This document shows, one piece after another, positions 18,001 to 21,000 of a stretch of DNA of 41,475 nt. Origin of the DNA: Shigella phage SfII. The stretch lies in the sequence record NC_021857.1; one strand, given 5' to 3'. Made by a program: the position numbers. The first letter of the stretch is position 1. Each line of letters starts with the position of its first letter.

Positions 18001-21000
18001 AAACCCGAGTGGCCTATGCATCCAAATAAATAGACTTGTTAATCTAGGATAATTGTTGGAATAATACTCATTTTTCAGTAGGTTCAGGTAGCCTGGGTAT
18101 AATGCTCACTTCTACAATGATTTCAACTTATTTTATTTAATTGATATTACGAAACTTAACTCATACATAAACAATATGACCCAATACTGTCCTAAATAGC
18201 TGCGCAGAAAAGTGCTCCACTTTCGCTCAGCCCTTGCTGGGCGAAGCATCAGGAAGGCGTTCTCAGCTAGGTTGTGTTATATCTGGCTTGAGTTTTGTTG
18301 CCCATACGCAACACATTACCCATCTGTAAACGACAAGTGTGGCAGAATTAGGTGCAGCTATTTAGACTATATCGACGCAGTAACGATAATAGATATCGAA
18401 ACTGTACTAGATATTAGCTACTTATGGTTGCCGGGGGGAGTCTTTTGAGCACTGGTGTTATCAATCGGCTTCAAATAATTCACCAATAAATTATATTGCG
18501 ATAGCTCATCACCTTCCAGGTTGTTTATAGCCAGTTTATCAGCGTCACCACCTACTGTTTATGCTTTTATTTCTTTGATTAATAAGTATATGATATTTTA
18601 ATTCATCTGGTGTATTTCTTTCTCATGTGTTGGTCGACTGAATATCTGTTCAGTGAAGGGGTAATTTTATGTTTGCACTTCGAACATTCCCTTCAGTTGC
18701 TAGGAAAGAAAACCGTAACATTTGCGCATTAATTTTAACAGTATAATCTGAGCATAAATATGCGCTATATATCTATAAAAAGGCGCAATTAATTGCGCCT
18801 TTTTATCATTTTATCAAAAATGGCCCACCGACTGTCCTCGATAGCCAATGGCCAATTTTATCTGATACATATACACAAATACAGGTATATATGATTGAGC
18901 AGATAGGATTTGGAATAGTCACGCTGAAGCCTATAATTGCTAAAGCCATAGGGATAAATAATTTGGTGATATACTCCATTCCACATATGTTAAGAGTATT
19001 TCTTCCAGCTCTTACAATAAAGTCATTTCCACAAATTATTTTTGCTATGAAAATATTAAAGATTATCAAGCCTACCGTGGTGATAATAGTATTAATAGCT
19101 TGAATATAACTACTTGATATTATGTCTGCATTGAATATTGAGATAATCTTAAAAAGTAAAGGTTTCTGGTTAAGTAGTTGATACGCACTCATTATAGCGG
19201 TAATTGAGAAGACAATGAAACCAATTTTAGATTTTCCAAAAAACCTGTCACGTGTTAATTCTAAAAACATACATCTACCGAGAGGCAATAACCACCAGTA
19301 TGCCATAGCGGAGTCTATGTTCCAAAACCATTGAGGATCTAGTAATGGGTTATGATTGAGCACTGTTTGTGACAACATGAACGATAACAGTGATATGATT
19401 AAAATCACTATATTGTTCTTGACTATTTCTCTAAAGATTGCATCAATTGCTATTATAACAAAAAGGCAGTTTATAAACCATATTGTTCCTACGAATTGGT
19501 TATTTCTAACACCATATATTATATCATAAATGTGGTTGTATATATAATCAATCGTCTCACCTGAGTTAATTGTGTTTATTATTAATATAGAAAATGCAAA
19601 AGTGAAATATGGAATCATTAATCTGTAAAACTTTGACTTGATATAATCGAAAATAGATAAGTCATTTTTTTTGATAGTAAAAAAACCAGCAGCGAAAAAG
19701 AATAGTGGGACGTGATAACTAAAAACAAAAGGATACAATTTGCCAGCCCCCAACCCAAGGTGACCTAAATATATAGCAAAAATACCGAGAAATTTTAAAG
19801 CATCAACCCAATCATGTCTTATTTTTCTGTTGCTGTCGATTTTGTTATTATACATTTAAAGTAGGCTCTCCAGTTTTGTGTGATTTTTAAACACTCATTG
19901 CAAATATGAATGCCTGAAAGTTTATGATTATTAATCAACGAGTTCAATATTAATTTATTATTTTTCAAAGTCGCACTATATAGGCATTTACTTCCGCAGT
20001 ACCACCGATAGTATCGATATCAAATCAGCCTGCGGCCGCGATAACTTTCGTAACATTCTGCCAGCGGCTTTGTTGAATAAATCAGGTTCAAGATAATCGT
20101 CTCTGCATCAGGTTAGAGTTTCAGGCAATACATCCTCTTTCTGGCATACCTGCCACTCTAGCACCATGGTCATAGCCTTTACGATCTGCATACTCACCAG
20201 ACCAGAGCCCGATCCATTTTAGGATGAGGAATCCCCAGAAAAGAAGACAGGCAGAGGGAGGCTTGTGATCTAATGATTGCGCTAACAAATTCAATGAGAT
20301 CACCTCTATGCCTGCCCGTAAAGTATGCCAGACTTTTTTCCGTAATGCTTTAGCTTCCACGCATCAGTATCGACAAAATGCCATTATTGATTCTGCTGCT
20401 GCTTTAGTCGGTGGCGCATCTCTTTCTCTTACCAGCATTGGCCGGCATTTACCCGGTCCTGCTCGCGTGAAAGATAAAATAAAACGCGTTGACCGTCTGT
20501 TGGGTAATAAACGACTTCATAATGATATCCCTCTGATATTCAAAAATATTACATCCATGATGACAAATAAACTGTCGTGGTGTGTTATCGCTGTTGACTG
20601 GAGCGGTTACCCTTTTCAGGAATATCATGTCCTTCGTGCCAGCCTCCTCTGCGACGGTCGCTCTATCCCCCTGATGAGTCAGGTCTTCCCGTCAAAAAAA
20701 AATAACGAGGCGGTGGAAATCGCTTTTCTGGATGCGCTTTCCGGGGCCATTTCTCCCCGGACTCGTGTTGTTATTGTTACTGATGCTGGTTTTCAAAGTG
20801 CATGGTTCCGTCATATCAAATCACAGGGATGGGATTTTATTGGTCGTATCAGGGGGGTAGTGAAGTTCAGGCTGGATAGTGACAAAGATAAGTGGCTGGA
20901 CATAAAAATGTGCAGGGGGAGTTCAGAGGCAAAATACCTGGAGACGGGAACCCTGGCCCGGAAAAAACGCTCGCAGTGTGAAGGACATTTTTATCTTTAT

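What the first reader, a model, noticed from the sequence alone, without database searches (positions are those of the whole stretch)
18034..18805. AT-rich non-coding spacer with a 13-bp inverted repeat pair downstream of the tail-fibre assembly gene
About 770 bp without credible ORFs between Tfa and the acyltransferase gene; contains inverted repeats AAATAGCTGCGCA (18196-18208) and TGCAGCTATTTAG (18354-18366) about 145 bp apart. The position next to tail-fibre genes recalls invertible host-range segments, but no invertase gene is present, so it may be a recombination scar or relic.
Basis: seen in the sequence. Interest (0 to 1): 0.2.

Follow-up and report, generated by a model that had tools for sequence, protein, structure and literature searches.

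The report
IS630 MITE inside decayed tail-fibre-switch relic
The inverted repeats are the two ends of a small, non-autonomous IS630-type transposon (a MITE) that landed in the decayed remains of an old invertible tail-fibre segment, so the spacer is ordinary genomic debris and not a working switch.

Summary
A 772-bp stretch with no gene lies between tfa and the acyltransferase. It holds a 12-bp perfect inverted repeat (18192-18203 / 18354-18365) that extends to 31-nt arms at 74%.

The arms are not invertase sites. They are the terminal inverted repeats of a discrete 174-bp element (18192-18365). Its ends match those of IS630 (2/20 and 3/20 mismatches). Each end carries TA within a CTAG context, which is the known IS630 target. 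The element recurs at 172-187 bp in at least 17 unrelated contexts across Enterobacterales. It is an IS630-family MITE.

Removing it and one TA in silico rejoins its flanks in frame. The result is a stop-riddled C-terminal tfa pseudogene on the + strand (18102-18448, z=13). A second, inverted tfa' pseudogene overlaps it tail to tail (18436-18700, - strand, z=12.7). P1-like phage-plasmids show the same convergent pair, and SfIV has it in the opposite orientation.

Three more features fit this reading:
- a hix/cix-like crossover site inside the tail-fibre gene (17254-17279);
- a 36-aa Pin invertase scrap (19962-20069);
- a palindromic terminator (18775-18806).

The region is ordinary and of low interest.

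The parts
17254..17279 (-). hix/cix/gix-like 26-bp crossover site (TTCTCCCAAACCAAGGTTTTCGAGAG on the minus strand). It lies inside the tail-fibre gene and encodes ALENLGLGE. It is the only such site in the window.
   Evidence: exact AAACCNNGGTTT core, and the only hit in 41 kb; 5 mismatches to each of the two inverted sites that flank the tfa/tfa' pair in the IncY P1-like plasmid L152. The site is identical in SfIV, SfI and SfV.
16977..17627 (+). Short tail-fibre gene with a gp53-like C-terminal domain.
   Evidence: Pfam PF21882, E=2e-13; 96-99% identical to SfIV, SfI and SfV.
17632..18033 (+). Intact tail-fibre assembly gene (tfa). Homology to SfIV ends at about 17994 and to SfI/SfV at about 18014, so the 3' end is a mosaic joint.
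   Evidence: Caudo_TAP, E=8e-26; end points of the matches; three different C-termini after the shared YRVLLMRV.
18034..18101 (.). 68 bp with no assignment, between the tfa stop codon and the first recognisable pseudogene residue.
   Evidence: No significant protein or DNA match.
18102..18191 (+). Left part of the tfa pseudogene (psi-tfa). It holds three in-frame stop codons.
   Evidence: after in-silico excision of the MITE it aligns in one frame with the right part to Tfa proteins.
18192..18365 (+). IS630-family MITE. The element proper is 18195-18362 (168 bp). The duplicated target TA lies at 18193-18194 and 18363-18364, within C...G of a CTAG target.
   Evidence: exactly this interval matches about 92 other E. 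coli genomes at 69-77%; homology ends sharply at the termini. IS630 terminal repeats as printed in PMC11544213; 2/20 and 3/20 mismatches to those repeats; short and full-length elements share only their ends.
18366..18448 (+). Right part of psi-tfa (LDYIDAVTIIDIETVLDISYLWLPGGVF, then the stop codon at 18446-18448).
   Evidence: tblastn with SfIV p22, E=3e-4. Smith-Waterman score 85 against 24.4 +/- 3.9 in shuffles, 0 of 1000 as high; z=13 against the IncY Tfa, aa 144-200.
18436..18700 (-). Inverted tfa' pseudogene (psi-tfa'). It is frameshifted, contains stop codons, and overlaps psi-tfa tail to tail.
   Evidence: 18472-18646 is 68.8% identical to the minus-strand tfa' of IncY plasmids; orientation of that gene; z=12.7 (aa 68-133) and z=7.5 (aa 47-95, in a second frame).
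18701..18774 (.). 74 bp with no assignment, between psi-tfa' and the terminator.
   Evidence: No match found.
18775..18806 (.). Perfect 16+16 palindrome, ATAAAAAGGCGCAATT/AATTGCGCCTTTTTAT. It looks like a bidirectional intrinsic terminator and abuts the acyltransferase stop codon.
   Evidence: inverted repeat I2, 100% complementary; terminator scan, 14 pairs; only sub-threshold Rfam hits, all to terminator hairpins.
18806..19855 (-). Acyltransferase-3 family gene (O-antigen modification cargo). It sits where the inverted tail-fibre half would be expected.
   Evidence: PF01757, E=2e-12; annotated as an acyltransferase family protein in relatives.
19962..20069 (+). Internal fragment of a Pin-like serine invertase gene (aa 77-112 of 182).
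   Evidence: 84% DNA identity to the invertase genes of HK225, mEpX1 and mEp237, E=2e-11; tblastn E=8e-10; too short for Pfam.
20066..20154 (.). IS903-type end fragment (GGCTTTGTTGAATAAATCAG...) that cuts off the invertase fragment.
   Evidence: 75% identical to IS903 in HK022 and P7; sequence; the same terminal repeat starts an IS5-family element in L017.

Best explanation
The spacer is non-functional debris with two layers.

Layer 1, the relic. An ancestor of this SfV/Mu-type tail module carried a Cin/Gin/Pin-type invertible tail-fibre segment. Its layout was: crossover site in the fibre gene, fibre variable part, tfa, inverted tfa', inverted fibre part, second crossover site, invertase. The following survive here:
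- the left crossover site (17254-17279);
- a decayed convergent pair, psi-tfa (+, 18102-18448) and psi-tfa' (-, 18436-18700);
- a 36-codon invertase scrap (19962-20069).
The inverted fibre half and the second site are gone. Their place is taken by the acyltransferase cargo gene with its terminator and by IS fragments. With one site and no invertase, the segment cannot invert.

Layer 2, the MITE. A 168-bp non-autonomous IS630-family element inserted into psi-tfa at a CTAG, duplicating the TA. The 'inverted repeat pair' is simply its two terminal inverted repeats. These are the sequences that an IS630 transposase supplied in trans would bind for cut-and-paste transposition.

This copy is the most diverged of the family (69-77% to other copies, 2-3 mismatches per 20-nt terminal repeat). 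No IS630 is present in the window. It is therefore most likely a fossil.

Shown here: the homologies, boundaries, reading-frame restoration, recurrence in other contexts and relaxed constraint. Inferred: the order of events, past transposition, and present inactivity.
For: **MITE**
- Only window 18192-18365 matches elsewhere. It matches at 69-77% in about 92 further E. coli genomes.
- The contexts are unrelated: the P2-like prophage cargo hotspot, an rhs/T6SS locus, and phage-plasmids.
- Homology starts and stops exactly at CTAAATAG...CTATTTAG.
- PMC11544213 prints the IS630 terminal repeats as CTAAATAGCTGCGCGGAATA and TATTAAGCGCAGCTATTTAG. The window copy differs at 2/20 and 3/20 positions. 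Most other copies match 22/22 at the 5' end.
- One scan for the terminal repeat returned both full-length elements and short ones. The full-length elements are mostly 1153-1159 bp; the one translated (L095) holds a 343-aa transposase ORF. The short elements are 172-187 bp. The two classes share only their ends.
- There are at least 17 distinct flank contexts. These include two loci in one Erwinia tracheiphila genome, and a Klebsiella plasmid that also holds full-length copies.
- All copies show C-TA...TA-G. This matches the published IS630 preference for TA in CTAG (Tenzen & Ohtsubo 1991, as cited in PMC2170065 and PMC6811581).
- Removing the element plus one TA restores one reading frame...PNTV-LDYIDAVT..., which aligns to Tfa proteins.
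- Intact homologues carry CTGG at the same codons. So does an intact rhs gene at the insertion site of another copy.

**Relic**
- psi-tfa and psi-tfa' give z=13 and z=12.7. Part of psi-tfa' also has 68.8% DNA identity to the IncY tfa'.
- The same tail-to-tail overlapping pair, flanked by inverted crossover sites, occurs in the IncY plasmid. SfIV has the pair in the opposite orientation.
- A Pin fragment is present.
- The spacer diverges 3-5 times faster than the flanking tfa and acyltransferase genes between two lineages: 92.8-96.2% against 98.8-99.1%.
- An E. coli relative tolerates an ISKpn26 insertion in the spacer.
Against: - No true empty site was found for this particular insertion. All 10 E. 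coli genomes (9 with the full spacer, 1 split by ISKpn26) and 6 viral contigs with this spacer already contain the element.
- The related intact sequences show CTGG at the site, not CTAG. The CTAG target is therefore inferred, not observed.
- The interior of the MITE (about 100 bp) has no similarity to IS630. Its link to IS630 rests on about 22 + 31 terminal nucleotides.
- Profile methods barely see the pseudogenes: Pfam finds nothing and PHROG 3792 gives only E=0.047.
- psi-tfa lies in direct orientation after an intact tfa. A simple decay model does not predict this. It requires an extra module-replacement step that I did not reconstruct.
- 68 bp (18034-18101) and 74 bp (18701-18774) remain unassigned.
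Confidence: 0.85

Rival explanations
1. The two repeats are crossover sites of a site-specific invertase, acting in trans or now lost, and the roughly 145-bp interval between them inverts.
For: The location next to tail-fibre genes, and the presence of an invertase fragment 1.6 kb away.
Against: The arms bear no resemblance to hix/cix/gix-type sites. The real site of that type lies at 17254-17279, and no second one exists in the window. The arms match the IS630 terminal repeats. The same repeat-bounded unit occurs in loci unrelated to tail fibres. The interval holds no promoter or alternative coding end that an inversion could switch.
Confidence: 0.02
2. The 174-nt unit is a structured non-coding RNA gene or cis-regulatory RNA that travels with phage cargo and defence genes. 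On this reading the terminal stem is an RNA helix and not a pair of transposase-binding sites.
For: It folds strongly: -69.3 kcal/mol with z=-4.2 on the + strand, and z=-3.6 on the - strand. Length is tightly conserved at 172-174 nt and the interior is alignable across genera. It recurs at cargo junctions of P2-like prophages and phage-plasmids.
Against: No Rfam family matches at E<=1, either in the window or in four other loci. In the RNAalifold consensus of 18 copies, the invariant or one-sided pairs are mainly those of the terminal-repeat stem. The covariation term is only -1.78 kcal/mol, and 6 of 44 pairs show a double change. G-U against A-C asymmetries point to different strands in different copies. 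No conserved promoter precedes the copies. The copy in the window evolves as fast as the surrounding pseudogene.
Confidence: 0.06
3. The inverted repeat is a chance match in AT-rich junk DNA.
For: A perfect inverted repeat of at least 12 bp appears in 2% of shuffled spacers, so it is not extremely rare.
Against: The repeat-bounded unit is conserved as a block in more than 100 genomes and many species, and its ends match IS630.
Confidence: 0.01
4. The spacer is the native 3' flank of the acyltransferase cargo module, and its tfa-like stretches are coincidental.
For: The spacer and the acyltransferase always co-occur in the 10 E. coli genomes and 6 viral contigs found.
Against: Two independent tfa-type similarities lie in the expected convergent, overlapping geometry, with z of 13 and 12.7, and one is also detectable at the DNA level. 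Co-occurrence is equally expected if the whole block spread as a unit.
Confidence: 0.05

Closest known systems
IS630 (Shigella sonnei, X05955) and IS630-family MITEs such as RUP of Streptococcus pneumoniae
   Same: The terminal inverted repeats match those of IS630 itself. The element is flanked by TA inside CTAG, the documented IS630 target. It is small (168 bp without the duplication), has no ORF, forms a long terminal stem, and is dispersed in unrelated loci. The logic is the same as for RUP and IS630-Spn1: a non-autonomous element presumed to be mobilised in trans (PMC2229807).
   Different: Copy number is low, usually 1-2 per genome, whereas RUP has about 100. The interior is unrelated to IS630, so this is not a simple internal-deletion derivative. 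The left 45 nt resemble the inverted IS630 3' end more than its 5' end. I found no paper that names this enterobacterial element, and ISfinder could not be consulted.
Din-family invertible tail-fibre segments: Mu G (Gin), P1/P7 C (Cin), e14 P (Pin)
   Same: There is a crossover site inside the fibre gene at the conserved ...ENLGLG... coding stretch. A convergent tfa/tfa' pair overlaps tail to tail. A serine invertase gene lies on the far side. All three are recognisable here.
   Different: Only one crossover site is left. The invertase is reduced to 36 codons. Both tfa copies of the pair are pseudogenes. The inverted fibre half is replaced by an acyltransferase gene. An additional intact tfa lies upstream. 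It is a relic, not a working switch.
Shigella phage SfIV (NC_022749), tfa p21 / inverted tfa p22
   Same: The tail module is the same (98.7% identity up to window 17994). An inverted tfa' follows tfa at the same site, followed by IS elements.
   Different: In SfIV the inverted copy is intact and is of the 'LDYIDAV' type on the minus strand. In the window that type lies on the plus strand, is decayed and carries the MITE. In other words the pair is in the opposite orientation. SfI and SfV have nothing at this site.
ERIC/IRU and YPAL/RU-2 enterobacterial MITE-like repeats
   Same: These are short, hairpin-forming, dispersed repeats of enterobacteria. YPAL is about 168 bp.
   Different: ERIC is 127 bp with 7-bp terminal repeats. 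YPAL lacks terminal TA, has internal repeats and produces 3-26-bp duplications (PMC2229807). Neither is reported there to have IS630-type termini; I did not compare their sequences here.

Membership tests
IS630-family MITE | Terminal inverted repeats that match those of an autonomous IS630-family element | tested here: met
   The window copy has 18/20 and 17/20 matches to the IS630 terminal repeats printed in PMC11544213. Other copies match 22/22 at the 5' end and 27-31 nt at 87-100% at the 3' end, compared with full-length elements from the same scan.
IS630-family MITE | TA target-site duplication, for IS630 proper within 5'-CTAG-3' | tested here: met
   All 24 unique copies are flanked by C-TA...TA-G, although the search pattern itself required CTA and TAG. 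Independent support comes from two comparisons. Removing the element plus one TA restores the tfa reading frame. Intact homologues have 4 nt (CTGG) where filled sites have CTA+TAG. No exact empty site was found for this locus.
IS630-family MITE | Small size and no transposase or other conserved ORF | tested here: met
   Copies are 172-187 bp. There is no ATG on the + strand and only a 17-codon ORF on the - strand (my own reading of the sequence). Stop codons lie in the termini.
IS630-family MITE | Several copies in unrelated genomic contexts with sharp boundaries | tested here: met
   At least 17 flank contexts in E. coli, Shigella, Erwinia, Dickeya, Serratia, Kluyvera, Klebsiella, Brenneria, Pantoea, Trabulsiella and Intestinirhabdus.
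IS630-family MITE | An autonomous partner in the same genome, and demonstrated mobilisation in trans | not testable with these tools
   There is no IS630 in the window. A Klebsiella plasmid holds both full-length and short copies. Mobilisation needs a transposition assay.
Din-family (Gin/Cin/Pin/Hin) invertible segment | Intact serine invertase gene adjacent to the segment | tested here: not met
   Only aa 77-112 of 182 remain, at 19962-20069. The fragment is cut on its right side by an IS903-type end.
Din-family (Gin/Cin/Pin/Hin) invertible segment | Two 26-bp crossover sites in inverted orientation | tested here: not met
   There is one site at 17254-17279 and no second site anywhere in the 41-kb window at up to 8 mismatches. 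The IncY comparator has two.
Din-family (Gin/Cin/Pin/Hin) invertible segment | Two alternative fibre C-terminal parts plus tfa genes in opposite orientation | tested here: inconclusive
   The convergent tfa/tfa' pair is present, but only as pseudogenes. No inverted fibre part was detected.
Rfam structured RNA families | Match to a curated covariance model | tested here: not met
   There is no hit over 18192-18365 at E<=1, nor over homologous copies in L006, L007, L008 and L017.

The most novel reading that the evidence does not exclude
The 172-174-bp IS630-ended element may be more than a passive MITE. Its length and alignable interior are conserved across many enterobacterial genera. It also recurs at cargo junctions: the P2-like prophage hotspot next to defence genes, phage-plasmids next to integrase and TnpB scraps, rhs orphan modules, and here at the tail-fibre/O-antigen cargo junction. 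It could be an unnamed element that promotes module exchange, or one that gives rise to a structured transcript with a regulatory role.
Probability: 0.08. Interest if true: 0.45.

Novelty: new member of a known kind. Interest (0 to 1): 0.2.

Why it matters
The main value is for annotation. A 772-bp gap left unannotated in every record examined of SfV-like serotype-converting prophages of Shigella and E. coli can now be labelled almost base by base: a MITE, two tfa pseudogenes and a terminator.

It also records that this phage lineage once had a Pin/Cin-type host-range switch. The switch was dismantled where O-antigen-modifying cargo now sits.

Finally, it documents a low-copy MITE with the termini of IS630 itself, spread across Enterobacterales. 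This is useful for IS and MITE catalogues and for avoiding false 'structured RNA' or 'recombination site' calls. Nothing here changes understanding of mechanism.

Tried and rejected
- **DNA similarity of the whole spacer.** Neither megablast nor blastn against 50,697 phage records gave a match. The phage database alone would have left the spacer unexplained.
- **Rfam.** The E-value scan found only sub-threshold hits, to terminator hairpins at 18738-18821 and to 'IS009' inside tfa. Nothing hit the repeat-bounded unit.
- **Retron, bridge RNA, omega-RNA, attC or Y-RNA.** I considered these from memory because of the long terminal stem. I dropped them: no partner gene is consistently nearby, and the TnpB gene in one context lies 420 bp away and is absent from the other contexts.
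- **The minus-strand tfa' relic.** It failed against SfIV, SfV and window Tfa proteins (z<3) and against Pfam and PHROGs. It was recovered only after a blastn hit to IncY plasmids supplied the right comparator.
- **Empty-site searches.** The P2 hotspot gave only filled sites. The rhs locus gave a related intact gene with CTGG, not an exact empty allele.
- **More distant contexts of the acyltransferase.** The viral-contig search returned only the same module at 98-99%.
- **Literature.** I found no paper naming an enterobacterial MITE with IS630 termini, and no paper text containing the hix sequence I recalled. The crossover-site claim therefore rests on the IncY comparison.
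Full report
**Setting**

The window is an SfV/SfI/SfIV-like serotype-converting phage or prophage of Shigella/E. coli. Its baseplate, fibre and tfa genes are 96-99% identical to those phages. The local order is as follows:
- short tail fibre, 16977-17627 (+);
- tfa, 17632-18033 (+);
- the 772-bp spacer;
- an Acyl_transf_3 gene, 18806-19855 (-);
- IS debris and an ISSfl9-like transposase;
- gtrII-gtrB-gtrA;
- int.

In SfI and SfV the type-specific gtr gene follows tfa within 100-230 bp. The spacer therefore belongs to an extra block of about 3.8 kb. Homology to SfIV stops at about 17994 and to SfI/SfV at about 18014, inside the last codons of tfa. The three phages and the window all have different Tfa C-termini after a shared ...YRVLLMRV. 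That is a classic mosaic joint.

**Checking the observation**

The spacer is AT-rich (G+C 0.35-0.44) and has no ORF over 78 aa. Nothing is annotated there in nine E. coli genomes that carry it at 95-99.6% identity.

The inverted repeat exists but is 1-2 nt off the stated coordinates. The perfect core is 12 bp (18192-18203 / 18354-18365). It extends to 31-nt arms that are 74% complementary. A perfect repeat of that length arises in 2% of shuffled spacers, so sequence statistics alone are weak support.

**What the repeat is**

A sensitive blastn of the spacer against 5,426 complete E. coli genomes gave an unexpected result. Apart from the ten genomes with the whole spacer, about 92 genomes matched only query positions 159-332. 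That is window 18192-18365, exactly the interval bounded by the two arms, at 69-77% identity.

Those copies lie in unrelated places:
- the cargo hotspot of P2-like prophages, next to defence-type genes;
- an rhs/T6SS locus;
- phage-plasmids, next to an integrase scrap and a TnpB gene.

In a multiple alignment, similarity begins at CTAAATAG and ends at CTATTTAG. The flanks are unrelated.

A full-text search for the terminal 14-mer found one paper. It prints the terminal inverted repeats of IS630 (X05955) as CTAAATAGCTGCGCGGAATA and TATTAAGCGCAGCTATTTAG. Most copies of the short element match the 5' repeat 22/22. The window copy has 2/20 and 3/20 mismatches.

One scan of 185,579 species-representative genomes with the degenerate 5' repeat returned 105 stretches. 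These contained 24 full-length elements, most of them 1153-1159 bp; the one translated (L095) encodes a 343-aa transposase. Together with the earlier E. coli and viral loci they also gave 47 short elements of 172-187 bp (one of 289 bp). The short and long forms share only about 22 nt at the left end and about 30 nt at the right end. The left 45 nt of the short form also resemble the inverted 3' end of IS630.

The short form occurs in at least 17 different flank contexts across about a dozen genera. These include two loci within one Erwinia tracheiphila genome and a Klebsiella plasmid that also carries full-length copies.

IS630 is documented to insert at TA within 5'-CTAG-3' and to duplicate the TA (Tenzen & Ohtsubo 1991, cited in PMC2170065 and PMC6811581). 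That accounts for the invariant C-TA...TA-G at the ends. It also accounts for the six-nucleotide difference between 1159 bp and the 1153 bp that I recall as the published length of IS630 (that figure is from memory, not from a tool).

The unit is therefore an IS630-family MITE. The element proper is 18195-18362, with the duplicated TA at 18193-18194 and 18363-18364.

**What it inserted into**

A tblastn with the inverted Tfa' of SfIV (p22) hit the + strand immediately to the right of the element (18362-18433, E=3e-4).

I deleted the element and one TA in silico. The two flanks then join in a single frame...MLTSTMISTYFI*LILRNLTHT*TI*PNTV|LDYIDAVTIIDIETVLDISYLWLPGGVF*. This aligns with p22 residues 115-172 (score 85; shuffles 24.4 +/- 3.9, maximum 54, 0 of 1000). 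It also aligns with residues 144-200 of a P1-like Tfa (z=13).

At the insertion point, intact homologues read AAC GCT GTG CTG GAT TAC. The excised window reads AAT ACT GTC CTA GAC TAT. The codons are the same and the length is the same, with CTAG in place of CTGG. This serves as a virtual empty site.

A comparable result came from the rhs copy. Intact rhs genes have GTGAA-CTGG-CAGTACC where the filled allele has GTGAA-CTA[element]TAG-CAGTACC.

**The rest of the spacer**

A blastn against plasmids matched 18472-18646 (68.8% identity) to a tfa gene of IncY P1-like phage-plasmids. In those plasmids a + strand tfa and a - strand tfa' overlap tail to tail by 29 bp. The match falls in the inverted gene.

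Protein-level tests confirm a minus-strand pseudogene in the window:
- residues 68-133 at 18436-18633 (z=12.7);
- residues 47-95 at 18551-18700, in another frame (z=7.5).

Thus 18102-18700 is a decayed convergent tfa/tfa' pair whose ends overlap as they do in the intact systems. SfIV has the same two Tfa types in the opposite orientation: the 'PDIEWPTPPAVQAR' end lies on +, and the 'LDYIDAV' type lies on -.

In the IncY plasmid the pair is flanked by two inverted 26-bp sites. The window has one site of this kind, 5 mismatches from each, inside the fibre gene at 17254-17279. It has no other anywhere in its 41 kb.

On the far side of the acyltransferase lies a fragment of a Pin-like invertase: aa 77-112, 84% DNA identity to the HK225 and mEpX1 invertase genes. 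It is cut off by an IS903-type end at 20066.

The perfect 16+16 palindrome at 18775-18806, followed by T-runs on both strands, is a terminator-like hairpin that abuts the acyltransferase stop codon.

Two short stretches remain unassigned: 18034-18101 and 18701-18774.

**Is any of it under selection?**

I compared the window with a lineage that differs by about 3% in the tail genes. The intact tfa and acyltransferase genes are 98.8% and 99.1% identical. The pieces of the spacer, including the MITE, are 92.8-96.2% identical. One E. coli relative carries an ISKpn26 in the middle of the spacer. Both observations fit unconstrained DNA.

**The RNA alternative**

The 174-nt unit folds well (z=-4.2 and -3.6 on the two strands). 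However, no Rfam family matches. In the consensus fold of 18 diverse copies, the pairs that never vary or vary on one side only are mainly those of the terminal-repeat stem. The covariation term is -1.78 kcal/mol, and 6 of 44 pairs have a double change. Wobble asymmetries point to different strands in different copies. I rate this rival at about 6%.

**Conclusion**

The repeat pair consists of the terminal inverted repeats of an IS630-type MITE that sits in one of two tfa pseudogenes. No working switch is present.

The MITE does not seem to be named in the searchable literature, and ISfinder could not be checked. It is a plain member of a well-known class. Interest is low.

Noticed in passing
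window 17254-17279: A hix/cix-like 26-bp crossover site survives intact inside the short tail-fibre gene, where it encodes ALENLGLGE. It is identical in SfIV, SfI and SfV, none of which has an invertase gene annotated in the stretches examined. A Pin/Cin-type invertase supplied by another prophage in the host would find one half of a substrate here.
   Followed up: partly
window 19962-20069 and 20066-20154: A Pin-like invertase fragment (aa 77-112) is cut off by an IS903-type terminal repeat (GGCTTTGTTGAATAAATCAG). Only about 90 bp of that IS remain before the ISSfl9-like element at 20308-21498.
   Followed up: partly
L008, L009, L026, L030 (P2-like prophage copies of the MITE): Copies in the P2 hotspot differ by 1, 2 or 3 tandem copies of a 7-bp unit (GCCCTTG) in the first internal hairpin. 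This gives lengths of 173, 180 and 187 bp and looks like a small slippage polymorphism inside the MITE.
   Followed up: no
L008 6001-6173, L009 6001-6180: In P2-like prophages the MITE sits between a DUF6694 lipoprotein gene and variable defence-type cargo (an AIPR protein in one, a hypothetical plus a STAS-like protein in the other). This is the known A-to-Q cargo hotspot. Whether the MITE marks the exchange boundary was not examined.
   Followed up: no
L006 5001-5172; L010 6001-6109: In phage-plasmids the MITE abuts a 113-bp 'site-specific integrase' pseudogene scrap and lies about 420 bp from a TnpB gene. In pSLK172-1 the MITE is itself cut by an IS21-family insertion.
   Followed up: no
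L017 5374-5545 and flanks; L011, L021, L022, L028: This MITE copy lies directly after a 238-aa ORF with a CoiA-like look (judged by eye only). In this context the flanks extend the hairpin (TTATGTGT...ACACGACATAA). In L017 an IS5-family element has inserted 9 bp beyond the MITE, and a group II intron lies 1.1 kb upstream (Rfam group-II-D1D4-6, E=3e-54).
   Followed up: no
window 17826-18002: There is a sub-threshold Rfam hit to 'IS009' (52.9 bits against a gathering score of 117, E=8e-11) inside the tfa coding sequence. It most likely reflects the fact that the Rfam seed comes from a prophage tfa region and not a separate RNA here.
   Followed up: no
L003 (E. coli EC812A1), corresponding to about window 18414: An ISKpn26 copy has inserted in the middle of the spacer, in the psi-tfa/psi-tfa' overlap, of an otherwise heavily deleted copy of this prophage.
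   Followed up: partly
window 18089-18094: A perfect TATAAT hexamer lies in the unassigned 68 bp just after tfa, with only a weak -35 (TTCAGT, 17-bp spacing). The promoter scan did not list it and no function is evident.
   Followed up: no
L054 (Chloroflexota MAG), L114 (Brevibacterium), L096 (Chryseobacterium): Near-identical full-length IS630-like elements turn up on very short contigs of phylogenetically distant assemblies. This may be contamination or very recent transfer.
   Followed up: no
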